Of a stretch of DNA of 64,000 nucleotides, positions 31,471 through 63,868 are shown one piece after another (the stretch's first letter is position 1; each line of letters begins with the position of its first letter). Under the pieces are notes generated by a model, which ran no database searches, had not been told where the DNA came from, and worked only from the letters and a program-made list of their open reading frames with translations. Both the position numbers and the translations under genes were made by a program. The stretch is from a virus (lineage: Duplodnaviria; Caudoviricetes). The DNA lies in the IMG/VR virus record IMGVR_UViG_3300042473_000311, positions 1,055-65,054 of that record, one strand, 5' to 3'.

Positions 31471-31792
31471 TAAACTCAGTCAAGTAATAAAAAACGAGAC
31501 ACCACACTTTATAACAAAGTCATTTGTTAAACCTAGATTTGATTACGATAGACATAAAACAGAGTATCATATCTATTGGTATAACTTAAAGAATCCAATG
31601 TTTAAAGACAGCCCTAGGTATAAATATTTATCTTATAAAGTAATGAATAAGAAAGAGAGAAAATACTTTGAGGATATACTAGATGAATATATTGAAGTAG
31701 CTAATAATAAGCATGGTAAAGTTTGGGAAAATAAAAAACTAGGGTTCGATAAAACCCTAGTTAAGAATAATCAAATAAGATTAGATATTTAG
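31442..31792 (+). CDS. Hypothetical protein
   Basis: 116-aa ORF overlapping the nuclease end and abutting a convergent gene. Confidence 0.55.
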   Translation: MSTTSAYSSNKLSQVIKNETPHFITKSFVKPRFDYDRHKTEYHIYWYNLKNPMFKDSPRYKYLSYKVMNKKERKYFEDILDEYIEVANNKHGKVWENKKLGFDKTLVKNNQIRLDI

Positions 31793-32716
31793 TTACTTAG
31801 CTTCTAACGCTTCAACTTTTGCTGTAAGCTCTTGAATTGCTTTAACTAGAACAGGAATTAATCTTCCAGCAGATGCAAATATTTTATCTTCAGATATAGA
31901 TTCATTTACTAATTGTAACTCTTCAGATACATTATATTTTTCTTGAATAGCTTTTAAATCTTGAGCTATAAATCCGCAGTCTTTAACATCGTGTTTTCCG
32001 TTTTCATCTCTGTCATCCCACACGAATTTAACAGGATTAAGTTCTTTAACAAAGTCAAGACCAATAGGTAATGATTCAACATCTTTTTTATCTCTAGCAT
32101 CAGATAAAAATGTAATAGTAGTAGCTGAACAAGCTAAAGTAGTTGTTGCCCCATCTCCTAATATAACTGTGTTACTTAATGTAGATACGGTATCATAACC
32201 ATTAGTTCCAATTAATACATTGTTTTGACCAGTAGTTATGTGAAATCCATTATTTCCAATACCAGCTCTATACCCTAAAAATACATTTTTTTGACCAGTA
32301 GTTAATTGAGAGCCAGCTTCTGAACCTACAATAGTATTTTGCGCTCCTGTTGTAGCTAATACACCTGCATTATATCCTACAAATGTTCCACTATTTGCTG
32401 TAGTAGATGCTCCAGCACCATTACCAAGAGCAGCACAGTTAGAAGCAGCTGATTGAAGAGCTAAATTACCTACAGCTGTATTATTAACAGAAGAAGCATT
32501 TTGTAATGCTCTTGTTCCGATAGCTAAAGACCCTGTTTGAGAATCTCCTGCCTCAAAACCAATAGCGTATGATTTTAAAGAAACACTTGCTTCATTTGTT
32601 GATTTAAATATGGTATCACCATTATTATCTACTACTTGAACAAAACCATTATCCCCTGGTAAATCAGGTCCTGTATAACCAAGAGGTGCTATTACATTTA
32701 CGTTTAATTGACTCAT
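31793..32716 (-). CDS. Tail spike/fibre protein with C-terminal peptidase S74 chaperone
   Basis: N.AVG..AL Gly-rich repeats; SDARDKK, LNPVKFVW, GFIAQD, LIPVLVKAIQEL. Confidence 0.85.
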   Translation of the reverse strand: MSQLNVNVIAPLGYTGPDLPGDNGFVQVVDNNGDTIFKSTNEASVSLKSYAIGFEAGDSQTGSLAIGTRALQNASSVNNTAVGNLALQSAASNCAALGNGAGASTTANSGTFVGYNAGVLATTGAQNTIVGSEAGSQLTTGQKNVFLGYRAGIGNNGFHITTGQNNVLIGTNGYDTVSTLSNTVILGDGATTTLACSATTITFLSDARDKKDVESLPIGLDFVKELNPVKFVWDDRDENGKHDVKDCGFIAQDLKAIQEKYNVSEELQLVNESISEDKIFASAGRLIPVLVKAIQELTAKVEALEAK

Positions 32717-32717
32717 A

Positions 32718-33587
32718 TTATTTTGATTTTAAAATTTCCATTTCTTCTGATAGCTCTTGTATAGCTTTAACTAATATTGGAACTAACTTACCGTAAGAAG
32801 CTTCTAATTTCTCTGGATTTTCTTCGTAAACCAATTTCAATGTATCAGCTAACTCTGCATCCTCTTGAGATTTCTTCAAATCTTGAGCTATGAATCCAAA
32901 ATCTTTAATATCATGCCTACCATTTTCGTCACGCTCATCCCATACAAACTTAACAGGTTTTAATCCTTTTACAAAATCAAGTCCTACAGGTAGTTCTTCA
33001 ACTTCTTTCTTATCTCTAGCATCTGATAATGATGTGATTGATGTTTGTTGACATCTTAGTACATTTACTTGACTACCTAATGTAAATTCATAATTAGCAG
33101 AATTAGAGCTAACATTTGAATTTATCCCGATACATGTGTTTCCTTCGCCTGTTATTTGCCCGCTATTACCAAATCCAGTATTACTACCAATCATTGTATT
33201 TGATCTAGCTACAGATCCTAATCCACTACCTGCCTGTTGTCCTATGCAAGTATTTAGATCTCCAGTTGATACGTTTTGTCCAGATGTTGATCCTATAAAA
33301 GTATTACCTAACCCAGTAGTTATATTTAATCCCGAACTTGAACCTACAGCTACGTTAACTGAGCCTGTTGTTGAATAAAGCATTGCATTTTTTCCAACAG
33401 CTACATTTTCTGATCCTGACACAGCTACAGCTGCTCCACAACCTATAATTACAGATCCAGAAGTAGTTGGAATATTACCTTGATTTCCTAAATAAACAGA
33501 ATCATTTATTGATTTTGTTTTTACTCCATTTAAGTTTAATATATTTACCGATTGAGGGTAAATGTTATTTACATAAAAATCACTCAT
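32718..33587 (-). CDS. Tail spike/fibre protein with S74 chaperone
   Basis: Same repeats and SDARDKK...GFIAQD...LVKAIQEL. Confidence 0.85.
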   Translation of the reverse strand: MSDFYVNNIYPQSVNILNLNGVKTKSINDSVYLGNQGNIPTTSGSVIIGCGAAVAVSGSENVAVGKNAMLYSTTGSVNVAVGSSSGLNITTGLGNTFIGSTSGQNVSTGDLNTCIGQQAGSGLGSVARSNTMIGSNTGFGNSGQITGEGNTCIGINSNVSSNSANYEFTLGSQVNVLRCQQTSITSLSDARDKKEVEELPVGLDFVKGLKPVKFVWDERDENGRHDIKDFGFIAQDLKKSQEDAELADTLKLVYEENPEKLEASYGKLVPILVKAIQELSEEMEILKSK

Positions 33588-33606
33588 TTTATTTATTTTT
33601 TATTAG

Positions 33607-33894
33607 TTACACAACAGTTAAAGTTGTTCCAACAGGAACTGTAATACTATATCCTAAACATATAGATAAAGGTCCAGTATATTCAAGGTTAGAGTTCTCT
33701 GGTAATAAGATATTCTCTCCTATACAACCAACGACTCTAAAGCCGTTAGCCCAGATACTAGTTCCTACTACTTCTCCTGTTCCTCCTTCGTTAACAGCTG
33801 CTATGATATTAGCAATATCTGTTACTATTAGTTGTTCGTTTCTTTCAAGTACAGAACCACCTCGTCTGTAATGTGATAATTGTTCAATTGGCAT
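33607..33894 (-). CDS. Small probable tail adaptor protein
   Basis: 95 aa ending GPLSICLGYSITVPVGTTLTVV; lies between the spike pairs. Confidence 0.5.
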   Translation of the reverse strand: MPIEQLSHYRRGGSVLERNEQLIVTDIANIIAAVNEGGTGEVVGTSIWANGFRVVGCIGENILLPENSNLEYTGPLSICLGYSITVPVGTTLTVV

Positions 33895-33895
33895 T

Positions 33896-35005
33896 TTATT
33901 TTGTTTTTAGGGTTAATATTTCTTCTTTTAATAATTTTATTTCTGAACTCATCTCTTGGATAGCTTTTACTAATACAGGTAATAGTTTTCCGTAAGATGC
34001 TTCTAGTTTTTCTGGATTCTCGTCATATACTAAATTCAAATAACCAGCTTTTGATTCTTCTTGAGCAGCTTTTAAATCTTGAGCGATAAACCCAAAGTCC
34101 TCTACGTCATGCTTTCCTTCTTCATCTCTATCGTTCCACACAAACTTAACAGGCTTTAATTTCTCTACAAATTCTAATCCTACAGGTAGGTCTTGAATTT
34201 CTTTCTTATCACGCTCGTCAGACAATGAAGTGATAGTAGTAACAGCTGCACGAATAACTGTATGCGATGAGTTACCTAGTGTAATAGCATTACTAGCTGT
34301 ATTTGAAGCTGGTTTTGTGTCATAGCCAATATGGATATTATTATTTCCAGACTGTTGATACGTAGTAGGAGGAGCGCCAAAAGAACCGCCAGCCCTAGCT
34401 CCAATAAAAATGTTTCGATCTCCAGTACTAAAAGCTGGACCAGCTAAATGACCTAAAAAAACATTATTAAAACCTAATGTTAAAAAAAGACCACTAGAAC
34501 TACCAAGAGCAGTATTCAAGTTAGAATTAGTTGTTTGTGTTAATGAATTAGACCCTATTGCTGTATTAGAATTTCCGCTTTGATTATTTATTAAACTTTG
34601 ATGACCTATAGCTACATTAGAGTCTGATAATGGATCACTTGTATTTTTCAAAGCTTGAGTTCCAATAGCAATATTCCATGGTGCTTCTGTATTTAAAGAC
34701 AAAGCTTCTGTACCAATAGCAATATTTCCTTGTCCTGTTGTTACATTAATCCCTGTTTGATCACCAATCAATATATCATTAAGATTAGGAGCGCTAATAG
34801 GAACTCCATTTACATCTACTACTGTTCCTGTATTAGGAAGTACGGAATCAACTTTTAAAGGACCAACAACTGTTGTTTCAGTTTCAGTTATTTCCATAGC
34901 GGTATTACCGTTTTTATCAATAATCTCTACGAAATTGCTATCTCCTGGTAAATCAGGACCTGTGTAGCCTAATGGTGCTACTACGTTTACATTTAATTGA
35001 CTCAT
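33896..35005 (-). CDS. Tail spike/fibre protein with S74 chaperone
   Basis: NIAIG/NTAIG repeats; SDERDKK...GFIAQD...LVKAIQE. Confidence 0.85.
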   Translation of the reverse strand: MSQLNVNVVAPLGYTGPDLPGDSNFVEIIDKNGNTAMEITETETTVVGPLKVDSVLPNTGTVVDVNGVPISAPNLNDILIGDQTGINVTTGQGNIAIGTEALSLNTEAPWNIAIGTQALKNTSDPLSDSNVAIGHQSLINNQSGNSNTAIGSNSLTQTTNSNLNTALGSSSGLFLTLGFNNVFLGHLAGPAFSTGDRNIFIGARAGGSFGAPPTTYQQSGNNNIHIGYDTKPASNTASNAITLGNSSHTVIRAAVTTITSLSDERDKKEIQDLPVGLEFVEKLKPVKFVWNDRDEEGKHDVEDFGFIAQDLKAAQEESKAGYLNLVYDENPEKLEASYGKLLPVLVKAIQEMSSEIKLLKEEILTLKTK

Positions 35006-35006
35006 G

Positions 35007-35927
35007 TTATTTTGATTTTAAAATTTCTATTTCTTTTGATAAATCTTGAATTGCTTTAACTAGTACAGGGATTAATCTTCCGTAAGTAGCCTCAAGTTTA
35101 TCTGGGTTCTCATCATATACTAGATTAAGATGCTCATCATCTAACTCTTTTAAGTCTTGAGCAATAAATCCTAAATCCTTAACTCCTTTCTTAGCTCCAT
35201 CTCTAGTATCCCACTCAAACTTAACAGGTTTTAAAGAATTAACGAAATCAATTCCATAATCTGATTCTTCGACATTTGTTTTGTCTCTAGCGTCTGAAAG
35301 AGATGTAATACTAGTTTGAGCGCATCTAAGTACAGATATACTTCCATTACCTAAAGTAATAGAATTAGATGCTGTAGCACTAGATTTAGTAGCCATAGAA
35401 CCTATTACAATATTATTATCTCCAGATGTAGATGAAAAAGCTGAATTTACTCCAATAGATATGTTATCGCTACCAGAAGAAGATCCTCCACAAGAAGCTC
35501 CTATACCTACATTTGAATCGCCAGTTGAAGTTCCTAATGCGCTATATCCTACAGCTGTATTATTTATTCCAGTTGTATTTAACAATAAAGCAGAGCCTCC
35601 AAGTGCTGTATTTTGTTCTCCAGTTGTATTATCTCTCAGTGCATTAGTTCCAAGTGCTGAATTTTGAGTTCCTGTAGAACTGTTTAAAGCATTAACCCCT
35701 ACTGAAGTTGAAAAAGAACCAGAAGATACGCTTAATCCACTACCTTCGTGTATTTTTATGCTGCTTGCGTTTGGAGCATCTACTGAAACCCCTGATACAA
35801 TAACGCTTGATCCAAGTCTAGGATTTATAACATCTACTTTTAAAGGGTCTAATATTTTTACATCACCTGATGAAAGAGACGAAATCTCATTTGTCTCTAT
35901 GTCTAATACTGATAATCCTACTGGCAT
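35007..35927 (-). CDS. Tail spike/fibre protein with S74 chaperone
   Basis: NTALG repeats; SDARDKT...GFIAQD...LVKAIQD. Confidence 0.85.
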   Translation of the reverse strand: MPVGLSVLDIETNEISSLSSGDVKILDPLKVDVINPRLGSSVIVSGVSVDAPNASSIKIHEGSGLSVSSGSFSTSVGVNALNSSTGTQNSALGTNALRDNTTGEQNTALGGSALLLNTTGINNTAVGYSALGTSTGDSNVGIGASCGGSSSGSDNISIGVNSAFSSTSGDNNIVIGSMATKSSATASNSITLGNGSISVLRCAQTSITSLSDARDKTNVEESDYGIDFVNSLKPVKFEWDTRDGAKKGVKDLGFIAQDLKELDDEHLNLVYDENPDKLEATYGRLIPVLVKAIQDLSKEIEILKSK

Positions 35928-42073: not shown

Positions 42074-42670
42074 AATAACAAATCTAAAGACAATAAATTA
42101 AATAAACAAATTATTTAAGAATTATTAACTATGGCACAATGCTTGATGGAAACACCATAATATTATGTTAAATAGACCCCCACTTTGTACTTACTTATAA
42201 ACTACACTTTGTACTTAAAAAGTGTAACATTATTAAACTGATAATCAGATAGTTACAAAACGCTTATTTTATTGTTTATTTCTATGTAAGAATGATACGT
42301 GCCAATCAGCATCCAGCTGACTGCCCTTGCATCATAAGTTGTTTATGTGAGATACAGGTACTAGACAGTACTACTATCCCTCCCCTGTTATAGGTGACTA
42401 TGCTAAATGTATTATGCATATTGGTGCTGGCGGCCCATTAATGTCAAGTTTATTGTGCAAAAAACTGGACATTATATCCTATTACGTATAATTAGCCCCT
42501 CTCAGAGACTTTTATATGTTTAATGATATAATGTGTCTTATAAGTCACGTATTGCTATTGTATTGTACTTTGTATGGCTAGTTGTGAAAAAAGAATACGT
42601 ATTTGTAGGAGTCTTATACACGCATACCTATCCCCTCCCGTTCTCAAAAGGAAAAGTGAATTTCAAAACC

Positions 42671-42853
42671 TTAGTGTCATTTGTACACTAACTATCTTTA
42701 CTTAGTGTCACTTGTACACTAACTCACATCCTCCTTTGTGTCATATATACACTAACTCTTTTTACTTATAGTACTTTTTACCATAACTAATCTTTACTTA
42801 GTGTCATTATTACACTAACCAATGATTTTTACTTAGTGTACTTTTGACACTTA
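42671..42853. repeat. Array of six 21-bp imperfect palindromes (consensus TTAGTGTCAnnnnTACACTAA)
   Basis: Copies start at 42671, 42702, 42735, 42766 (degenerate), 42798 and 42833 (inverted). Confidence 0.9.
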
Positions 42854-43039
42854 CTTAATGCAATATAGTTGCAATAAGGAGTTATTCTCATTTATTCCAC
42901 CATAAAAAAACTTGATTAGATTTTAACCACAAATAAAACTAGATTTTAATCATTTGTTATCTATCTAATCAATCATAAAACTATTTTAAATTTTAACATA
43001 TTTTAACATTTATTTATTTTTTAATTCGGAATTAATATC

Positions 43040-48085: not shown

Positions 48086-48405
48086 TGAACGATATAGATT
48101 GGGAGAAGGTAAATATATATCTCCACGCAGATAAGACTGGCTTTATCGAAGAAGAAACAGATGATTCAATAGTAACGCTAGACTTTACCTGGTATGTTGA
48201 GTCATGCATTGATGAATGGTTTAAGGTTGCTGTTAGCTTCGATGCTATATACATCTACGATAAAGATACTGGTAACTTTTATAGTGTACCATCCACGCAC
48301 GTACAAGAGATTCTATCAGAAAGAATAGAAACAGATGTTAACGAGGGAGCAGGACACTTAGGGTTAGATAATTACCACGAAGATAAATACTTAGATTTTG
48401 ATTAA
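48082..48405 (+). CDS. Acidic early hypothetical protein
   Basis: 107 aa, D/E-rich. Confidence 0.65.
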   Translation: MMNDIDWEKVNIYLHADKTGFIEEETDDSIVTLDFTWYVESCIDEWFKVAVSFDAIYIYDKDTGNFYSVPSTHVQEILSERIETDVNEGAGHLGLDNYHEDKYLDFD

Positions 48406-48851
48406 TAAATAATAAATAATATGAATACATATCACTTTTGCTATGTGATAGGCGAGGAACTATGCACAGGCGTTAACATTAAATCAGCATCTTACTTAGG
48501 CGCTATGCAGAAGTTTAATAATACTTATGGTAACAAAGACCTACTGTACGTAATGAAACTAAATACAATTAAATAATATGATAGAAAAAGGCGTATGGTT
48601 TGTAATACTTGTATCTTGGATATTCAATCTATTCTATGTGGGTACAATATTCTTTATGATGTTTTACTCAGTAATAGATTCCATAACCTTAATGTTTAAA
48701 TAATGGATTTAATAACAAAAATTAGCATACTATTTTATTCAGTTATCAGCTTGATTTACTGTATATTATTCATCTTATTCATGGTTTCATTCATAACAAC
48801 AATGTATTACATACTTATAAAACAATTAATATTTTAACTAAATTAGCATAT

Positions 48852-50073: not shown

Positions 50074-50724
50074 ATGGAAAAAGAAAAGAAAGTTTTAAAA
50101 TGTATTGACAACAAAGGATTGGAGAATAGATTAACTATCGGCAGATATTATCCTGCTGACTATACTTATTCCTATGGTAATGGCGGGCCAATAACCTATT
50201 ATATCCTTGATGACTTAGGAGCTTACTCATATTACTCCTCAACGCATTTCGTGGAAGGAGAACCTCGTTCAATATCAACAACAGATCCTATCGTTGAACA
50301 AGTAAAAGAATTATTTGATGAACGTAGCCAAACAGGAATGAGAAAGTACGGTACTACCCTTCAAGAAAATAATATAGATAACTTCTTTAAACATCTTCAA
50401 GAAGAACTTATGGATGCTGTATTGTACCTCCAGAAACTAAAAGATAATAGAATAGAAGATGAAGAAGAAAGCTTTGTAGATACTTTATCTCACTACATGA
50501 AAAAATCATTCAAGATGGAAACAAAAGAAAATACATCTATTGATTATATCATTGAGCAGTATGAGGATAAAGATTTATCTAATGAGTTTGATAGATACCT
50601 AGCTAAAGAAAAAGCAAAAGAAATGTTTAAGCAACAGATTATAGATGCTTTCTTCTATGGTAGATTTATGAGTGATGAATATGGTAATGGTGAAGGTTAT
50701 TTCAATAAAACATTTAAACAATGA
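50074..50724 (+). CDS. Composite protein with MazG-like helical domain and C-terminal AKEM..QI.DA module
   Basis: ERSQTGMRKYGTTL...HLQEELMDAVLY; C-terminus paralogous to 51097-51339. Confidence 0.6.
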   Translation: MEKEKKVLKCIDNKGLENRLTIGRYYPADYTYSYGNGGPITYYILDDLGAYSYYSSTHFVEGEPRSISTTDPIVEQVKELFDERSQTGMRKYGTTLQENNIDNFFKHLQEELMDAVLYLQKLKDNRIEDEEESFVDTLSHYMKKSFKMETKENTSIDYIIEQYEDKDLSNEFDRYLAKEKAKEMFKQQIIDAFFYGRFMSDEYGNGEGYFNKTFKQ

Positions 50725-51107
50725 GACAGTTAATTTATAATGCAGTTAAATGCTTAGAATGTAATGAGACAATAGTAAGCAGACATAGGCATGACTATAA
50801 GACCTGTGATTGTCCTAACAAAGCTATGGTAGATGGTGGATTAGATTATCAAAGGTATGGTGCTAAGAGCATGAGTAGAATAGTAGCTATAGACATATAT
50901 GCTGATGATGACTATGAAATTGTACGGAGATATGCCGTACGTGGTAGTAGAGGTAAGGATGGATTACAACCGTTATCGTGGATTGCGATATGCGATATGG
51001 ATGACGACTACCTCCAGGCAGTAGTTGATTATGGTGGAGCTGATTGGCATATAGACTTGATTAAGAAAGAAATAGAATACAGAAAAAATAATAAAGATGG
51101 AGAATAA
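50721..51107 (+). CDS. Zn-finger protein
   Basis: CLEC...HRHDYKTCDC...VDGG. Confidence 0.7.
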   Translation: MRQLIYNAVKCLECNETIVSRHRHDYKTCDCPNKAMVDGGLDYQRYGAKSMSRIVAIDIYADDDYEIVRRYAVRGSRGKDGLQPLSWIAICDMDDDYLQAVVDYGGADWHIDLIKKEIEYRKNNKDGE

Positions 51108-51339
51108 ACAAACAGCAGTAAATTGGATGGCAAATGAGTTGCTTTATTTGGACAATGAATATGACATGAAGCTAATTGATAAGAATGAATATCAAGCAAG
51201 AAGAAAAGAAATAATTGACCAAGCCAAAGAAATGTTTGAAGAACAGATAATGGATGCTTATAATCAAGGGAGCAATGATTATGGTTCTCAATGTTATCAA
51301 CCAGAACAATACTACAACGAAACCTTTAAATCAGAATAG
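51097..51339 (+). CDS. Small protein, KQTAVxW...AKEM...ETFKSE family
   Basis: 80 aa, ends inside the 21-nt repeat. Confidence 0.7.
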   Translation: MENKQTAVNWMANELLYLDNEYDMKLIDKNEYQARRKEIIDQAKEMFEEQIMDAYNQGSNDYGSQCYQPEQYYNETFKSE

Positions 51340-51340
51340 A

Positions 51341-51550
51341 ATGAAACAGAAATTTTTATTTATTAAAATGCTTTGGATGGTCATTAGAAACAAAGAAAAT
51401 GGATGGATGTTTTTTAGAATGACAGAACAACAACAAAAGGACTTTTTAAATGATGTTCAAGATGTAGATATTACATTTAGATATATTGGAATGGATAAAA
51501 AAGTTGTTGAAAAAATAGTACACAGATTGGAAACCTTTAAATCAGAATAG
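51341..51550 (+). CDS. Cassette gene 1 (69 aa), hypothetical
   Basis: Starts at the repeat ATG and ends ETFKSE in the next repeat. Confidence 0.7.
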   Translation: MKQKFLFIKMLWMVIRNKENGWMFFRMTEQQQKDFLNDVQDVDITFRYIGMDKKVVEKIVHRLETFKSE

Positions 51551-51551
51551 A

Positions 51552-51746
51552 ATGGCAATGGCAAAAAGATATTTTGACTACGAAACTTACAACAAGTTAG
51601 GGCAACCAGACTTAGGTGCAAAAATGTATTTTATAAGAAACGGCAAAAAAGTATGGGGAACTGTTTCTTCAGTACATTTTACAGGAGAAAAGTCAAAACA
51701 CAAAGGAAAAATAGAATTAGGAATTTCACCCTTTAAATCAGAATAG
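51552..51746 (+). CDS. Cassette gene 2 (64 aa), hypothetical
   Basis: Starts at the repeat ATG and ends PFKSE in the next repeat. Confidence 0.7.
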   Translation: MAMAKRYFDYETYNKLGQPDLGAKMYFIRNGKKVWGTVSSVHFTGEKSKHKGKIELGISPFKSE

Positions 51747-51747
51747 A

Positions 51748-51933
51748 ATGAAAACAGCAGTAGAGTGGTTGGTACAAGAGTTACATGACAATGGATATTT
51801 CCATGAGGGAGTTCCTGAAGATATAGTTAAGATAGCCGAAGGAATGGAAAAAACACAAGAAGCCAAAGAATACCTAAAAGGATTTAGAGATGGTAAAGAA
51901 TGGCAAAGAAAAAATGAAATAATTAACCTTTAA
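51748..51933 (+). CDS. Cassette gene 3 (61 aa), KTAVEWL family
   Basis: Starts at the repeat ATG and stops at a TAA inside the next repeat, in a different frame. Confidence 0.7.
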   Translation: MKTAVEWLVQELHDNGYFHEGVPEDIVKIAEGMEKTQEAKEYLKGFRDGKEWQRKNEIINL

Positions 51934-52082
51934 ATCAGAATAAGATGAAAGAAGAATCTGGAAAAATTCATGCAAATTATAGTTTAATTGTCAGGTTAAT
52001 CCTGACATGTAAGATATAAAAAATAAAAATAATGTTAATAACCTTGTAAATTATATTAATAACTCGTAAATTTGAAACGTCA

Positions 52083-52394
52083 ATGCCACTAAAAACAAAA
52101 AATAAATTCATTGGAATTAAGGATCTATTAGATAATCGCAATATGCGACTGTCAAACCTTCAAGATGAATTAATCAAGTACGGAGTTCCTGGTAATTGGT
52201 ACTGTTATCACAATGTATATAATCTAATCAATGGAGCTATGCCTAAAGATGCTTATGTACTTATGTTCCTAGCTGACTTCTTTGAAGAAGATATGGACTC
52301 AATAATCTACAGGTACTCAGCTCGTAAAGTATATTCCACAGTAGTATCTAGAACACCAATAGAAAAGAAAAAAGTAATAGAAGATTTATTTTAA
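52083..52394 (+). CDS. Possible HTH DNA-binding protein
   Basis: XRE-like spacing (IKDLL...LSNL...LADFF); own promoter at 52067. Confidence 0.45.
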   Translation: MPLKTKNKFIGIKDLLDNRNMRLSNLQDELIKYGVPGNWYCYHNVYNLINGAMPKDAYVLMFLADFFEEDMDSIIYRYSARKVYSTVVSRTPIEKKKVIEDLF

Positions 52395-52404
52395 AAAAAA
52401 ACAA

Positions 52405-52623
52405 ATGAAAGAACTTGAAGAACACCATCTACAAATGCTTCAACTACTTGAAAGCATAGAGGTAATGCTGGATAATGGAGACTCAATACATCCTGACTCT
52501 GTAATTAGAGGAGCTATTCGATTAGCGATAGGTAAGGATGATTACTGTATGCCTGAAGGATTAGATACTCCAGAGAAACATGAGCAGTACTTGAAAGATA
52601 TAGGATTAATAAATAATAAATAA
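52405..52623 (+). CDS. Hypothetical protein
   Basis: 72-aa ORF. Confidence 0.6.
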   Translation: MKELEEHHLQMLQLLESIEVMLDNGDSIHPDSVIRGAIRLAIGKDDYCMPEGLDTPEKHEQYLKDIGLINNK

Positions 52624-52624
52624 A

Positions 52625-52912
52625 ATGAAAATACATTTCGCACAAAGAGTAATGGTAAAGCTTGTACCTAAATCAAGCACAGATGGATCAATGTCTCAGA
52701 ACAAATCATTAGTTCAAAATGATTCAAATAAACACAAAGTATTTATAGATAGAGAAGTGTTTAAGAAGTCTCAGAAAGACATTGATAGCTTAAAAATAGC
52801 TAAGGCAGAGTTTAAACATAAGCCATCAGCTAAGATTAAGGAAGAGATACTAAGAGCATTCATTGACTCATCTATTCCTAATTGGAACTTATCTTTTGTA
52901 TTAACCAAATAA
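52625..52912 (+). CDS. Hypothetical protein
   Basis: 95-aa ORF. Confidence 0.6.
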   Translation: MKIHFAQRVMVKLVPKSSTDGSMSQNKSLVQNDSNKHKVFIDREVFKKSQKDIDSLKIAKAEFKHKPSAKIKEEILRAFIDSSIPNWNLSFVLTK

Positions 52913-52923
52913 ATAATAACAGT

Positions 52924-53841
52924 ATGAATTTAAAAGAACTATCAAGACCTTTGACTATTGATGACATAGACTTCAGAGTACAGTCTATCAATGCTAAAGG
53001 CTACGCTACAATACTAGCGTATAAGGATGCCAGAATTGATATGCAGAGATTAGATCAAGCAGTTGGCCCACTAAACTGGCAACGTAAACATGAACTAATT
53101 GATGGTAAGCTATTCTGTCACGTTGGTTTATATAATCCAGAGACAAGTCAATGGACATGGAAGTCTGACGTAGGTACAGAATCAATGACAGAAGCTACCA
53201 AAGGCGAGGCATCAGATTCATTTAAGCGTGCCTGTTTCAATTGGGGTATAGGTCGTGAGCTTTATGACTATCCAATAATATCTATTAAGCTAGTAGAGAA
53301 AGAAGAATACGAAGTTACTTCTGGTAGAGCCAAACAAACCTGGGGATTACGACTAAGAGATTGGACATGGTTCTCTCAGTTTACAGATGGTAAGATAAGC
53401 TACATAGCTTGTAAAGATACTAATGGCAAGCTAAGATTCCAATGGGGTACATACGTTAAAGAAGAAACATCTACGCCTACTCCTAAAGTAAATCCTGCTA
53501 ATGACCCTGATGCTAACCCTCAAGGGGTACTAAAGAAAAAGACAGATGCTGAGATAGAACTTGAAGCATTAACTCAAGAATATATATCTGTTGTAGGTAA
53601 GAAGCCAACAGCTAAGATGACAGCAGAGATGATGAGAGAAGCTATTGACAAAGAACTTAATGAGTATTTATCTCTATCTCTTTATGAAAAAGCACTTGTT
53701 GATATGAAGAAGCACACCACTAAAGCTGAGCTTAAACAATGGGCGATGACTATACTAGGACAGTTAGAGTCAGCAGACCCAGATAACCTTGAAGCATTCA
53801 AGACTCATTGTAATAATCACGCATTAACTTTAAAGAATTAA
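52924..53841 (+). CDS. Sak/Rad52-like single-strand annealing recombinase
   Basis: IDFRVQ, LAYKDAR...RLD, WKSDVG, KGEASDSFKRA...WGIGRELY. Confidence 0.88.
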   Translation: MNLKELSRPLTIDDIDFRVQSINAKGYATILAYKDARIDMQRLDQAVGPLNWQRKHELIDGKLFCHVGLYNPETSQWTWKSDVGTESMTEATKGEASDSFKRACFNWGIGRELYDYPIISIKLVEKEEYEVTSGRAKQTWGLRLRDWTWFSQFTDGKISYIACKDTNGKLRFQWGTYVKEETSTPTPKVNPANDPDANPQGVLKKKTDAEIELEALTQEYISVVGKKPTAKMTAEMMREAIDKELNEYLSLSLYEKALVDMKKHTTKAELKQWAMTILGQLESADPDNLEAFKTHCNNHALTLKN

Positions 53842-61431: not shown

Positions 61432-62253
61432 TTACACTTGGCGAGCCAAGGCTGTGTTAAATAATTGTACCGCTGTATAAAAGTTAGCTGATTCGGTATC
61501 TGTTAAGCCGTCTGAAATAAAAAATAAAGCATATTGTCTATTCGTAGGATATTGTAAACCTCCATTATTATTGAAGCCTCCAAGCCAAATTTCAGCATTA
61601 CAATTTCCACTACTTGCTGTCGTGCCAGTAGTTAATAAAGTTCCGTTTTTATAGTTTTTTATTGTAGTTGCCGCTGTTCTACTTCCTATATAAAATCCCT
61701 GTGAGTTTGTGTTGGCAGATGTAGTATATATTAAACCTGAATTTATAGTGTTATAGATAGAATTTAAATATCTTGCGTAAAAAACATCATAAATACCATT
61801 GGAACCAACACCTCCAATATCAACAGTTAAAGAATCATTATTTGTTCTTGAATAAAAACCATAAGCAAATGAATTTTGAGCCGTTACCGCACTTGGAATA
61901 AAACCAGTATTGCCGTAACTATTTGCCGCATTTCCATTAACTCCATTTGCTCCCCAAGTCCACCCACCGTTCCAAGCAATTTGATATTGTGCTGTGTTCT
62001 TTAAATTGTAACTTGTTGAAGTTGAAGTACCCCCTACAAATGGATACAAAGCTTTCATTTTTGTCCAAATGTTGTATCCTTTCAAGTCAACTACCAAAGT
62101 ATTAATAGCGCTTGATATAGTAGCATCAGTAATACCAGCAGCTGTTAGAAATGCTTGCGCATCTGGATCAATAGAAGCAACAGCAGGAAGTATTATATTA
62201 CATCCCTTAGTTCCTGCGCTTAATACCTTACCTAAATATATACTAGCTCCCAT
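61432..62253 (-). CDS. Probable tail/receptor-binding protein (lectin/LamG-like), paralogue A
   Basis: DPDAQAF.TAA...LKGYNIWTKMKA.YP; beta-rich; near-identical ends to 63065-63868. Confidence 0.6.
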   Translation of the reverse strand: MGASIYLGKVLSAGTKGCNIILPAVASIDPDAQAFLTAAGITDATISSAINTLVVDLKGYNIWTKMKALYPFVGGTSTSTSYNLKNTAQYQIAWNGGWTWGANGVNGNAANSYGNTGFIPSAVTAQNSFAYGFYSRTNNDSLTVDIGGVGSNGIYDVFYARYLNSIYNTINSGLIYTTSANTNSQGFYIGSRTAATTIKNYKNGTLLTTGTTASSGNCNAEIWLGGFNNNGGLQYPTNRQYALFFISDGLTDTESANFYTAVQLFNTALARQV

Positions 62254-62807
62254 TAATATGTTTTGTTTAAAATAAATATATCACTATAAATGCTATTACC
62301 TGGATCTGCCGCTCCCCATTGTACTGTTATATTCAATGTATTAGCTATAGTAGTATCAAAGGTGGTATTGTTAACTACATTAAAAGCAAATCCTTGAACA
62401 CTAGCGTTAGATGTCTTAGCATAATGAAATGTACCTAATGAGACTATAGAAGCTACACCAGGGCCACCTAGTTGTCTAACAGTAAAATCTACATTCAAAG
62501 AGAATACATCATTAGTAATATTAGTAATGTTTTGAGCAAGACTATCTAGTAATACAATAGAACCAGCCTTGACTCTTATTCTTATAGTTTGATTATTAGC
62601 AGCATTTAATACACCAGCTGTAACAACTCTAAAACTATCACCTACTTTAAAAGCATTAGCAGGAACAGATAAGCTACCTACTCCTCCATTAATTAGAGAT
62701 GTCTCTACTGTAGTATTAGTAATAGGAGTACTGTTTGCTGTTTGAGCAAATAAACCTCCTGTTATAGTATAAGGATTAGCAGATAATATGTTTATCTGTG
62801 TACTCAT
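62253..62807 (-). CDS. Probable tail structural protein
   Basis: Beta-rich T/N/V protein among the tail genes. Confidence 0.5.
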   Translation of the reverse strand: MSTQINILSANPYTITGGLFAQTANSTPITNTTVETSLINGGVGSLSVPANAFKVGDSFRVVTAGVLNAANNQTIRIRVKAGSIVLLDSLAQNITNITNDVFSLNVDFTVRQLGGPGVASIVSLGTFHYAKTSNASVQGFAFNVVNNTTFDTTIANTLNITVQWGAADPGNSIYSDIFILNKTY

Positions 62808-63055
62808 TCAAAAGGTGGTGGTGTTGGTTTTGGTTCGTAAGGAATTAAATCAAGGTCTTTAACCCAAAGATAATCTGGATTAACGCATTGCTCCATTTCT
62901 TCAACTGATATTACCCAATTGTCGTTAACATCTTGGATAGGATTGAAATAGCTATCTGGTGCATACCATTGACCGATTAATTCGTCTTTTTGTAACTCAG
63001 TAAGCAAACCTACATAAGTTAGTCTTTGTTCTTTTGTTAATTCGTTTAGTTTCAT
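62804..63055 (-). CDS. Small tail-associated protein
   Basis: YFNPIQD..DNWVISVEE...PKP; follows the lectin-like gene. Confidence 0.55.
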   Translation of the reverse strand: MKLNELTKEQRLTYVGLLTELQKDELIGQWYAPDSYFNPIQDVNDNWVISVEEMEQCVNPDYLWVKDLDLIPYEPKPTPPPFE

Positions 63056-63064
63056 ATCTTATAA

Positions 63065-63868
63065 TTAAATATTTCTGGAAAGTGCCACTTGGAATGCTTG
63101 TACCGCTGTGTAAAAGTTAGCCGCTTCGGTATCTGTTAAACCATCTCCTATTGAAGCAAAGGCACATTGTTTTGCTGAATATAAATCATTTGTTCCTACA
63201 CCGCCTCTTCTAAATAAATTTAAAATATAAGAAGAACCTCCAGTATATGAATTTATATTTGTTCCCGTACCTAAACTACTTCCATTTCTATAAGTTTTCC
63301 AAGTATTATTAGCTGTTCTGCTGTTTAAAATTAAACCTCTTGAATCAGCAACACTTGGGTTTAATCTTCCCGTTTGCGCATCGCATTGATTGTTTAAATA
63401 TGTACTTCCACTTCTTACAATAAAACACTCTTCTGTTCCTGCACTATTTCCACTACCAAATTCACACCCTAAAGTAGTTGAGTTAGTTCTAATATAAGTT
63501 GAAATATGGCTACTTAATGCTGTTGTTGAATCAAACGAAAAACCTGTTTGACCATAACCATTTGTCCCATTAGGTAAAACACCTGTTGAGCTGTGCGTTA
63601 TACCACCATTCCAAGTTATTTGATATTGTGCTGTATTACGCAAATTATAAGAATGACTTGTGCTACTTCCCCCGACCATTGGATAAATTGCTTTCATTTT
63701 AGTCCAAATGTTATAACCCTTCAAGTCAACTACCAAAGTATTAATAGCCGCTTGTTGAGTAGGGTCTGTTATTGCAGCCGCTGTTATGAATGCTTGTGCA
63801 TCGGGGTCAACAGCAGGAGCTAAAGAAGCTAAATAAATACCAGTATTTCCACCTAAGATAACAGGCAT
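63065..63868 (-). CDS. Probable tail/receptor-binding protein, paralogue B
   Basis: Same conserved ends as 61432-62253. Confidence 0.6.
   Translation of the reverse strand: MPVILGGNTGIYLASLAPAVDPDAQAFITAAAITDPTQQAAINTLVVDLKGYNIWTKMKAIYPMVGGSSTSHSYNLRNTAQYQITWNGGITHSSTGVLPNGTNGYGQTGFSFDSTTALSSHISTYIRTNSTTLGCEFGSGNSAGTEECFIVRSGSTYLNNQCDAQTGRLNPSVADSRGLILNSRTANNTWKTYRNGSSLGTGTNINSYTGGSSYILNLFRRGGVGTNDLYSAKQCAFASIGDGLTDTEAANFYTAVQAFQVALSRNI

What the first reader, a model, noticed from the sequence alone, without database searches (positions are those of the whole stretch)
51097..52019. Integron-like mini-gene cassette array joined by a 21-nt repeat that supplies both stop and start codons
Seen: CCTTTAAATCAGAATAGAATG occurs at 51323, 51534 and 51730, with a variant at 51927, at periods of 211, 196 and 197 nt. 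Each copy ends one small ORF and provides the ATG of the next. Three otherwise dissimilar proteins therefore end in FKSE*, while the fourth stops at a TAA inside the repeat in another frame, so conservation is at DNA level rather than protein level. A weaker echo (ACATTTAAACAATG) lies at about 50707-50723. Inference: the repeat is a recombination joint that lets approximately 200-bp expression-ready cassettes be added, lost or shuffled without breaking translational coupling. No integrase is visible; the Sak/Rad52 annealing protein about 1 kb downstream is a plausible catalyst, since this class tolerates short homology.
Basis: partly seen in the sequence, partly recalled or inferred. Interest (0 to 1): 0.82.

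Follow-up and report, generated by a model that had tools for sequence, protein, structure and literature searches.

The report
Shared junction motif shuffles phage mini-genes
A 21-base sequence that ends one tiny gene and starts the next marks the edges of about 200-base gene cassettes that freshwater Bacteroidota phages, including unrelated ones, gain, lose, reorder and share.

Summary
CCTTTAAATCAGAATAGAATG is exact at 51323, 51534 and 51730, with a 2-mismatch variant at 51927. Each copy stops one small ORF and supplies the next ATG.

The motif is widespread. The exact 21-mer occurs in at least 119 IMG/VR phage contigs (168 sites), read in all three frames by the upstream ORFs. Synonymous positions are almost invariant, so conservation is at DNA level.

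Relatives with 85-99% identical flanks carry 0, 1, 3, 4, 6 or 7 cassettes in different orders. Cassettes c2 and c3 recur at 99% identity in an unrelated 120-kb phage, with similarity ending inside the motif. Blocks of at least 95% identity stop at motif junctions in 162 of 194 cases, against 215 of 1230 at ordinary gene starts.

It is not an integron: no integrase and no hairpin. The Sak link is weak, because other carriers have ERF, RecA or none of the four recombinase families tested. Two of the four window ORFs are paralogues.

Best reading: a short-homology recombination linker that doubles as a stop/restart translation junction of Bacteroidia type. The closest analogue is the PeSL cassettes of T4-type phages. 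I rate it a new variant of a known kind. The recombination and translation steps are inferred, not shown.

The parts
51323..51343 (+). Junction motif copy 1. The TAG at 51337-51339 stops c1, and the ATG at 51341 starts c2.
   Evidence: Exact match; ORF ends and starts.
51534..51554 (+). Junction motif copy 2. It stops c2 and starts c3.
   Evidence: It shares 25 nt (GAAACC + motif) with copy 1.
51730..51750 (+). Junction motif copy 3. It stops c3 and starts c4.
   Evidence: It shares 24 nt with copy 1 ('both 24').
51927..51947 (+). Junction motif copy 4, the recurrent variant ..AATAAGATG. c4 stops at the TAA at 51931-51933 in frame B. A further TAA lies just 5' of the motif.
   Evidence: The same variant occurs 23 times in related loci.
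51097..51339 (+). Cassette c1, 80 aa. Member of the widespread small-protein 'family 0' (MKTAVEWL.. / QAKEMEKEQI / ..EQYYNETFKSE).
   Evidence: HMM E 6e-20 with the tail removed; alignment A2; no Pfam or PHROG family.
51341..51550 (+). Cassette c2, 69 aa, an ORFan unrelated to family 0.
   Evidence: HMM E 0.13. Found at 98-100% identity in L054, L112, L124, L127 and L174, with different neighbours.
51552..51746 (+). Cassette c3, 64 aa, an ORFan unrelated to family 0.
   Evidence: HMM E 0.53. Found at 98-99% in L112, L124 and L176, and at 91% in L056.
51748..51933 (+). Cassette c4, 61 aa. Family-0 member of the ..EIINL* subtype, which ends in frame B of the motif.
   Evidence: HMM E 1e-11. Found at 98.8% in L029 and 96.8% in L174.
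51945..52019 (+). 24-codon ORF after the last motif; it is doubtful as a gene. It contains a stable stem-loop (51977-52019) that closes the array.
   Evidence: Folding gives dG -14.8 kcal/mol, z -3.58, and 0 of 200 shuffles fold as well. The segment is present next to the DUF7695 gene in L125, which lacks the array.
50721..51107 (+). DUF7695 gene, the conserved left anchor of the array.
   Evidence: PF24749, E 1.4e-15. Used to fetch relatives.
50074..50724 (+). 216-aa ORF whose C-terminal domain is family-0-like. This explains the 'echo' at 50707-50723.
   Evidence: HMM E 1.6e-9 for residues 154-211. DNA repeat 50612-50650 / 51221-51259 at 85%.
52083..52394 (+). 103-aa ORF, the conserved right anchor of the array.
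   Evidence: 96-99% identical in L124, L125 and L127, whatever the array content.
52921..53841 (+). Rad52/Sak- or Erf-like single-strand annealing protein. A possible but not specific catalyst.
   Evidence: PF04098 at 28.4 bits (cut-off 20.3); phrog_1097 E 3.6e-25. Homologues in only 5 of 28 motif-bearing records.

Best explanation
The array is a variable stack of small early genes at the 3' end of an operon, in the replication/recombination module of a 65-kb Bacteroidota phage. The cassettes are joined by a standard 21-24-nt junction, (TAA)CCTTTAAATCAGAATAR-N-ATG.

The junction appears to do two jobs.

1. Expression (inferred). It closes whichever reading frame arrives: TAG or TAA at positions 15-17, TAA at positions 5-7, and often a further TAA just 5' of the motif. 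It is unstructured and A-rich, with A at -3, -6 and -11 to -13, which are the positive determinants of initiation in Bacteroidia. It ends in the next ATG. Any cassette should therefore be translated wherever it lands.

2. Exchange (inferred from comparative patterns). Copies are identical within and between phages over 21-25 bp. General homologous recombination or single-strand annealing between copies could then delete, duplicate, permute, replace and import cassettes. Candidate enzymes are the phage's own annealing protein (Sak/Rad52-like here, ERF in the 30-35-kb phages) or the host's RecA.

The motif most likely began as the 3' end of an abundant, itself modular small-protein family (family 0) and spread to unrelated ORFans.

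Shown: the motif, its frames, DNA-level conservation, array variability in close relatives, near-identical cassettes in unrelated phages, and breakpoints at the motif.

Inferred: the recombination mechanism and enzyme, translational coupling, and the function of the cassettes. All cassettes are ORFans; they are probably accessory early proteins.
For: Spread and DNA-level conservation:
Identity falls to background outside -2..+20.
- Upstream ORFs end in all three frames. Family 0: A 91, B 3, C 1. Other ORFs: A 21, B 26, C 10. The 27 non-family clusters split B 11, C 9, A 7.
- In 127 loci fetched without reference to the motif, 42 of 44 places encoding F-K-S-E-stop use exactly TTT AAA TCA GAA. 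The loci's own codon usage predicts 5%.
- Among 76 near-matches, positions 2-15 carry 16 mismatches in all. Position 16 changes only G to A, keeping a stop codon.

Array variability in relatives with 85-99% identical flanks:
- window: c1, c2, c3, c4
- L124: seven cassettes, including c3 .. c2 in the opposite order
- L174: c1', Y1, Y2, c2, Y3, c4
- L176: c1', c3, Z
- L181: one chimeric cassette
- L125 and L179: none
- L177: a 268-nt segment without the motif

Exchange between unrelated phages:
- c2 and c3 occur at 99% identity in a complete 120.7-kb phage that shares nothing else with the 64-kb window. An 86-aa cassette sits between them there, and the similarity blocks run motif to motif (win 51321-51554 and 51532-51750).

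Breakpoints at the motif:
- Of 11,026 site pairs, 49 share only the upstream flank, 74 only the downstream flank, and 14 both.
- Blocks of at least 95% identity and 150 nt terminate at motif junctions in 162 of 194 cases. The figures are 215 of 1230 at other gene starts, 133 of 725 at small-gene starts, and 82 of 279 at non-motif starts within 1 kb of a motif.

Copy number:
- 67 copies occur in 19 of 19 near-complete genomes, 1-9 each, clustered, and on a single strand in 17 of the 19.

Translation side:
- The motif has A at -3, -6 and -11 to -13. Baez et al. 2019 report A-3, A-6, A-12 and A-13 as positive determinants in F. johnsoniae (PMC6847099, abstract and section 15 read).
- The window's own genes show A at -3 in 61% and at -11..-13 in 58-68%, against 32% A genome-wide. 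SD-like 4-mers occur upstream of 2 of 71 genes.
- The junction RNAs are unstructured, z +0.6 to +1.25.

Homology length:
- 21-25 bp is near the 23-27 bp minimal efficient pairing segment quoted for Red-beta, against 31-34 bp for RecA (PMC3945230, passages read).
Against: - No recombination event, circle or within-population junction was seen directly. The one raw-read run gave no reads, and the Logan contigs only show that contigs break at the motif, plus one 438-nt contig with the order c3 then c2.
- All relatives are metagenome assemblies. A roughly 230-bp cassette shared by two phages in one sample could cause chimeric joins exactly at cassette edges, so individual array orders may be wrong. 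Such chimeras still require real sharing of the cassette.
- Conservation of every base in positions 2-15 is stronger than a homology-only role needs. It points to an additional sequence-specific function that I could not identify.
- The motif is the natural end of one gene family in 95 of 152 sites, so part of its spread is ordinary paralogy.
- No recombinase is common to the carriers.
- The left edge of the window's array is not a motif copy. The L125 and L179 indels end at the DUF7695 stop region.
- The site pairs and HSPs are not phylogenetically independent, and loci L005-L123 were ascertained by the exact motif.
Confidence: 0.68

Rival explanations
1. The motif is purely an expression or regulatory element. 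It could be an optimal Bacteroidia initiation region, or the operator or cleavage site of a translational regulator shared by early micro-genes. On this reading cassette turnover happens by ordinary illegitimate recombination filtered by selection, and the motif plays no part in exchange.
For: Every base in positions 2-15 is nearly invariant, including synonymous sites, which suggests sequence-specific recognition. The A positions match known determinants. The junction is unstructured. No recombinase is common to the carriers.
Against: Similarity blocks end within 2 nt of the motif on both sides of transferred cassettes. Termination is 83.5% at motif junctions against 17.5-29% at other gene starts, including neighbouring ones. 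Illegitimate joins would not land in the same 21 nt each time. A regulatory role also does not exclude use as homology, as with PeSLs.
Confidence: 0.17
2. This is a true site-specific cassette system of integron type. An unrecognised recombinase or nuclease, possibly a family-0 protein itself, recognises the motif and excises and inserts cassettes.
For: The motif is a very sharply defined, oriented 19-21-nt site. The cassettes are promoterless, co-oriented and of uniform size; adjacent motifs lie mostly 130-280 nt apart. Family 0 co-occurs with the motif almost everywhere.
Against: There is no tyrosine or serine recombinase in the own genome. An integrase above cut-off is found in 1 of 28 carrier records, and that record is 19% complete. 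There is no hairpin or inverted repeat. Family 0 has no match in Pfam, PHROGs, PADLOC or the PDB.
Confidence: 0.06
3. The array is a tandem duplication of one small gene followed by divergence, with the gene ends kept alike by gene conversion. There are no exchangeable cassettes.
For: c1 and c4 are paralogues. The 216-aa ORF upstream carries the same C-terminal domain. 95 of 152 upstream and 28 of 155 downstream ORFs at motif sites elsewhere belong to that family.
Against: c2 and c3 show no similarity to the family or to each other (E 0.13 and 0.53). 57 of 152 upstream ORFs, in 27 clusters, are unrelated and enter the motif in all three frames. The same cassettes sit in different orders and in unrelated genomes at 99% identity.
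Confidence: 0.05
4. The variability is an artefact of metagenome assembly. Contigs are mis-joined at the repeated motif or at shared cassettes.
For: All relatives are assemblies. Logan contigs break at the motif, and depth there is 10-30 times that of the flanks.
Against: The 21-25-bp repeat is shorter than usual assembly k-mers (my recollection, not from a tool). Different arrays come from different samples. Seven of the 19 near-complete motif-bearing genomes have direct terminal repeats. A chimera through a cassette still needs that cassette to exist in two genomes.
Confidence: 0.04

Closest known systems
PeSL (promoter-early stem-loop) cassettes of T4-type phages (Arbiol et al. 2010, PMC2839356, abstract and section 13 read; Comeau et al. 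2014, PMC4122927, abstract read)
   Same: Both are short repeated expression motifs at the boundaries of small ORFan genes in plastic regions. Recombination between copies explains insertions, deletions and replacements between close relatives. The motif gives each incoming gene its expression signal.
   Different: PeSLs are intergenic transcription units: a sigma-70 promoter, a stem-loop terminator and an SD sequence. This motif has no promoter and no stem-loop. It is only 21-24 nt, lies partly inside coding sequence, and acts (by inference) in translation as stop plus restart. It is shared by phages of at least three size classes with different recombinases. Mini-circles, shown for PeSLs, were not testable here. 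The supplementary figures of that paper were not seen.
Integron gene-cassette arrays (IntI, attI, attC, Pc); recalled knowledge, no paper read
   Same: Both are co-oriented, promoterless, compact cassettes stacked behind one promoter. Cassette content and order vary between relatives, and the cassettes are mostly of unknown function.
   Different: There is no integrase and no attC-like folded imperfect inverted repeat. The joint is a 21-nt direct repeat that is also the stop and start codon. The setting is a lytic-type phage genome with terminal repeats.
Linker or boundary sequences of the modular theory of phage evolution (Susskind and Botstein 1978; lambdoid boundary sequences, Clark et al. 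2001); recalled, papers not seen
   Same: Both involve short conserved sequences at gene borders, proposed to target homologous recombination between otherwise unrelated modules.
   Different: Here the linker is exact over 21 nt at 168 or more sites, overlaps stop and start codons, and bounds units of only about 200 bp.
Relaxed homologous recombination by phage single-strand annealing proteins (De Paepe et al. 2014, PMC3945230, passages read)
   Same: Phage SSAPs make mosaics from short or diverged homology. The quoted minimal pairing segment of 23-27 bp for Red-beta matches the 21-25 bp shared here. An SSAP gene lies 1 kb from the array.
   Different: That work concerns hundreds of bp of diverged homology in temperate coliphages. 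No assay exists for these SSAPs, and five near-complete carriers lack any of the four recombinase families tested.
Kozak-like, SD-less initiation regions of Bacteroidia (Baez et al. 2019, PMC6847099, abstract and section 15 read)
   Same: Both show A at -3, -6, -12 and -13, low structure and no SD. The window's genes show the same signature.
   Different: A generic initiation region is a loose preference. This motif is one fixed sequence with built-in stop codons.

Membership tests
Integron | IntI-type tyrosine recombinase adjacent to the array | tested here: not met
   PF00589 gives 0 matches in the complete own genome, while the control rings in 14 of 14 genomes. Above cut-off in 1 of 28 motif-bearing records. 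Serine recombinase PF00239 gives 0 matches.
Integron | attC sites: imperfect inverted repeats that fold as single strands | tested here: not met
   No inverted repeat has its arms at the motif copies among the 25 pairs shown, of 47 found. The 81-nt junction windows fold no better than shuffles, z +0.63 to +1.25.
Integron | Co-oriented promoterless cassettes whose content varies between relatives | tested here: met
   All 4 copies are on one strand. Promoter-like hits number 34 against 32 expected. Arrays differ among relatives.
PeSL mobile regulatory cassettes (T4-type phages) | Sigma-70-like early promoter inside the repeat | tested here: not met
   The 21-mer holds no -35/-10 pair, and the region shows no excess of promoter-like sites. 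Bacteroidota promoters are not covered by that scan. By eye, the TAnnTTTG element (recalled consensus) is absent from the motif.
PeSL mobile regulatory cassettes (T4-type phages) | Stable stem-loop (terminator or attenuator) inside the repeat | tested here: not met
   Only the end of the array carries a stem-loop (51977-52019).
PeSL mobile regulatory cassettes (T4-type phages) | Repeats flank ORFans, and indels or replacements between close relatives have their ends in the repeats | tested here: met
   The cassettes have no Pfam, PHROG or PADLOC family.
PeSL mobile regulatory cassettes (T4-type phages) | Mini-circles formed by recombination between neighbouring repeats | not testable with these tools
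   The raw-read run X21 held no reads of this phage, and Logan contigs cannot show circles. One 438-nt contig has the order c3 then c2.
Translationally coupled stop/start junction | Stop of the upstream ORF within a few nt of the downstream start, on the same strand | tested here: met
   The junction reads TAG-A-ATG in frame A, has TAA 11 nt before the ATG in frame B, and TAA 18 nt before it in frame C. 155 of 171 motif ATGs open an ORF of at least 30 aa.
Translationally coupled stop/start junction | Downstream translation depends on upstream translation | not testable with these tools
   This needs reporter assays or ribosome profiling.
-1 programmed frameshift site (slippery heptamer T TTA AAT) | An upstream ORF reads the heptamer in the X XXY YYZ frame | tested here: not met
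   That frame (C) is closed by a TAA just before the motif at all 14 frame-C sites. It is rarely open upstream elsewhere.

The most novel reading that the evidence does not exclude
The motif is not just an initiation region that recombination happens to exploit. It is a maintained, dedicated exchange site. On this reading a three-frame-stop / Bacteroidia-start junction of 21-24 nt makes about 200-bp micro-genes, and half-genes of the modular family 0, freely portable among unrelated Bacteroidota phages of 30 to 124 kb. That would amount to a community-wide cassette pool without an integrase, working at the level of translation rather than transcription.
Probability: 0.4. Interest if true: 0.85.

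Novelty: new variant of a known kind. Interest (0 to 1): 0.72.

Why it matters
That conserved linkers guide modular exchange between phages is an old proposal, but clear sequence examples are few. PeSLs are the best documented.

This would be a second, mechanistically different example:
- The joint is a translational stop/restart signal rather than a promoter-terminator unit.
- It works in any incoming reading frame.
- It is exact at hundreds of sites.
- It links phages that share nothing else.

It would explain how uncultured freshwater Bacteroidota phages trade tiny ORFan genes, which are the class most likely to hold host-takeover or counter-defence functions. It defines a searchable marker for that accessory gene pool. 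It also offers a natural 21-nt, SD-free coupling linker for building operons in Bacteroidia.

The motif string was found in no paper, and neither the motif nor c1 was found in 50,697 GenBank phage records.

Tried and rejected
- A PDB profile search gave nothing better than E 0.13. The ESM Atlas gave only viral 'hypothetical protein' clusters without Pfam families.
- c1-c4 have no curated family. Pfam matches are all below the curated cut-offs, PHROGs gives only two weak matches to c4 (E 0.0045 and 0.0085, unknown function), and PADLOC gives none. Representatives of ten common downstream cassette families have no Pfam match, and the six of them also scanned against PADLOC have none. My guess that two larger downstream ORFs are nucleases got no support and is dropped.
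- Sequencing runs: 20 runs, labelled lake water, freshwater, metagenome or 'fungus metagenome', hold part of the stretch. The raw-read run X21 had no reads. Most 'joints' in the Logan contigs have sides of 20-35 nt, so they are just the motif in other organisms and I do not count them. The gap at c4 in run X1 proves nothing under the tool's own caveat.
- A second junction repeat (26 nt at 48400 and 52604) is real in the window, with 0 expected. It occurs in only 3 IMG/VR contigs, two of them close relatives. It is a local repeat, not a second widespread linker.
- -1 frameshifting on TTTAAAT is rejected.
- A promoter or terminator function of the motif is rejected.
- Host: of 3 MAG contigs with the exact motif, two (Chitinophagaceae and Bacteroidota bins) are phage-like. 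The Saccharicrinis hit looks like chance. I assign the host only to Bacteroidota.
- Literature searches for boundary sequences and cassette coupling found nothing relevant.
Full report
**1. Observation**

The 21-mer CCTTTAAATCAGAATAGAATG is exact at 51323, 51534 and 51730. It occurs with two mismatches (..AATAAGATG) at 51927. The chance expectation is 0.03 matches, and none of 100 shuffles reached four. Spacings are 211, 196 and 197 nt. The window lies in a 65,054-bp virus record with direct terminal repeats, rated 100% complete. These four copies are the only ones in it, all on one strand.

Four ORFs follow one another:
- c1, 51097-51339, 80 aa
- c2, 51341-51550, 69 aa
- c3, 51552-51746, 64 aa
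- c4, 51748-51933, 61 aa

c1, c2 and c3 end in FKSE* at the motif's TAG. c4 ends in ..IINL* at the TAA inside copy 4, in another frame. Each next ORF begins at the motif's ATG.

**2. Setting**

The array lies between a DUF7695 gene (50721-51107) and a 103-aa gene (52083-52394). It sits in a plus-strand block that also encodes a Rad52/Erf-like annealing protein (52921-53841), a DnaB helicase, a MazG-like protein, DUF1064 and SSB.

After the last motif comes a 24-codon ORF holding a stable stem-loop at 51977-52019 (dG -14.8 kcal/mol, z -3.58).

The phage's genes lack SD-like sequences (2 of 71). They are enriched in A at -3 (61%) and at -11 to -13 (58-68%), against 32% A genome-wide. This is the signature described for Bacteroidia (PMC6847099, abstract and section 15 read). 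The only DNA matches among GenBank phages are weak ones, to Flavobacterium phages and to one Vibrio phage Rad52 gene. The exact motif occurs in two phage-like contigs binned with Bacteroidota MAGs.

**3. The cassettes are only partly paralogous**

With the shared tail removed, c1 and c4 match a profile of a small-protein family that I call family 0 (E 6e-20 and 1e-11). Its conserved blocks are MKTAVEWL, QAKEMEKEQI and EQYYNETFKSE. c2 and c3 do not match (E 0.13 and 0.53), and they show no similarity to each other.

No cassette has a Pfam, PHROG, PADLOC or PDB relative.

**4. The motif is widespread and conserved as DNA**

That gives 168 sites with 154 distinct flanks, and identity falls to background outside -2..+20.

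At 171 sites, counting the window's three exact copies, 155 motif ATGs open an ORF of at least 30 aa. Of 152 upstream ORFs, 95 are family 0, and 91 of those end in frame A. The other 57 form 27 clusters and enter the motif in all three frames: 21 in A, 26 in B and 10 in C. A further TAA sits just 5' of the motif at 52 of 171 sites. In that extended form the junction stops all three frames.

In 127 loci fetched through the DUF7695 protein, so not chosen for the motif, 42 of 44 places encoding F-K-S-E-stop use exactly TTT AAA TCA GAA. The loci's own codon usage predicts 5%. Among 76 near-matches, positions 2-15 carry only 16 mismatches. Position 16 changes only G to A, keeping a stop, and position 17 is free. 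The window's copy-4 variant recurs 23 times.

Nineteen of 19 near-complete carrier genomes hold 1-9 clustered copies, 67 in all. They lie on a single strand in 17 of the 19. Neither the motif nor c1 is found in 50,697 GenBank phage records.

**5.

Relatives do not keep the same content and order:
- L124 (flanks 97% and 93% identical) has seven motif copies. Its cassettes are X1, a family-0 chimera (c4-like N-terminus, c1-like C-terminus), a 49-aa ORF, c3 at 98%, a 66-aa ORF, c2 at 98% and a 58-aa ORF.
- L174 has c1', Y1, Y2, c2, Y3, c4.
- L176 has c1', c3, Z.
- L181 has a single chimeric cassette.
- L125 and L179 have no array.
- L177 has a 268-nt segment without the motif.

**6. Cassettes cross between unrelated phages**

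A complete 120.7-kb phage (L112) shares no block of 100 nt or more with the whole 64-kb window outside the array. It nevertheless carries c2 and c3 at 99% identity, separated by an extra 86-aa cassette. The similarity blocks correspond to window 51321-51554 and 51532-51750, that is, motif to motif. c4 occurs at 98.8% in a 29.6-kb contig, and c3 at 91% in a 35-kb ERF-type phage.

**7. Breakpoints concentrate at the motif**

- Among 11,026 pairs of sites, 49 share only the upstream flank, 74 only the downstream flank and 14 both.
- Blocks of at least 95% identity and 150 nt that reach a motif junction stop there in 162 of 194 cases. The figures are 215 of 1230 at other gene starts and 133 of 725 at small-gene starts, and 82 of 279 at non-motif starts within 1 kb of a motif.
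- These counts are not phylogenetically independent, and most loci were ascertained by the motif.
- Family 0 is itself mosaic. Of 741 pairs among 39 members, 6 share only the N-variable segment, 13 only the C-variable segment and 1 both.

**8. What it is not**

- There is no tyrosine or serine recombinase in the genome. An integrase above cut-off occurs in 1 of 28 carrier records.
- There is no hairpin or inverted repeat at the motif, and no excess of promoter-like sites.
- It therefore fails the defining tests for integrons and for PeSLs, although it behaves like both.
- The Sak homologue is present in only 5 of 28 carriers. ERF is present in 9 (all the 30-35-kb genomes), RecT in 0, and RecA in 1 of 6 large genomes. 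Five near-complete carriers have none of these.

**9. Reads**

Logan contigs of three lake or metagenome runs break at the motif copies. Depth in the motif bin is 269-528, against about 5-16 in the flanks. One 438-nt contig carries c3 followed by c2. The only raw-read run held no reads of this phage. This is compatible with many contexts per cassette, but it is not proof.

**10. Mechanism**

I infer a dual-purpose junction.
- It is a frame-independent stop plus a Bacteroidia-type restart signal.
- It is also 21-25 bp of perfect homology, close to the 23-27 bp quoted as the minimal pairing segment for Red-beta (PMC3945230, passages read). General recombination or annealing could use it to delete, permute, replace and import cassettes.

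The near-invariance of every base suggests a further sequence-specific role that I could not identify.

**11. Comparison and novelty**

The closest known system is PeSL-mediated modular shuffling in T4-type phages (PMC2839356, abstract and section 13 read; PMC4122927, abstract read). The present element differs in four ways. It acts in translation rather than transcription. It lies partly in coding sequence. It is much shorter. It is shared across unrelated phage groups.

No paper holding the motif string was found. Two topical searches found nothing relevant. I rate it a new variant of a known kind.

Noticed in passing
window 42663-42854: Four copies of a 30-nt repeat (..ACTTAGTGTCAnTTGTACACTAAC, itself partly palindromic) at spacings of 31, 96 and 35 nt, in a stretch with few long ORFs. 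It looks like iterons or operator sites, so a possible replication origin or regulatory region.
   Followed up: no
window 48400-48425 and 52604-52629: A second junction repeat, GATTAATAAATAATAAATAA(A/T)ATGAA, with TAA stops in all three frames before an ATG. The two upstream ORFs read it in different frames. None is expected by chance, but it is found in only 3 IMG/VR contigs, two of them close relatives.
   Followed up: yes
alignment A2 (family 0; window 51097-51336 plus 38 loci): Family-0 genes are two-module mosaics. Identical N-variable or C-variable segments are combined with unrelated partners, and the joins lie at the conserved central block QAKEMEKEQI. Of 741 pairs, 6 share only the N segment, 13 only the C segment and 1 both.
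   Followed up: partly
L124 5654-5857: A family-0 gene in a close relative looks like a chimera of the window's c4 (N-terminal part, 83% DNA identity) and c1 (C-terminal part, 79%).
   Followed up: partly
window 51977-52019 and 52044-52074: A stable stem-loop without a T-run closes the array. It is followed by TTG .. 20 nt .. TAAATTTG, which resembles the Bacteroidetes -33/-7 promoter consensus as I recall it. That would place the start of a new transcription unit before the 103-aa gene.
   Followed up: partly
window 31792-35334 (minus strand): Three to four diverged tandem units of about 0.9-1.2 kb (60-77% identity over 98-220 nt), probably paralogous structural or fibre genes.
   Followed up: no
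window 61460-63816 (minus strand): Two paralogous segments 1.63-1.64 kb apart (78-81% identity over 48-148 nt).
   Followed up: no
window 51549 (motif copy 2) in run X3: One contig carries a 6-nt insertion (GAATAG) inside the motif. This is a duplication of the motif's internal GAAT-A-GAAT repeat and suggests slippage.
   Followed up: no
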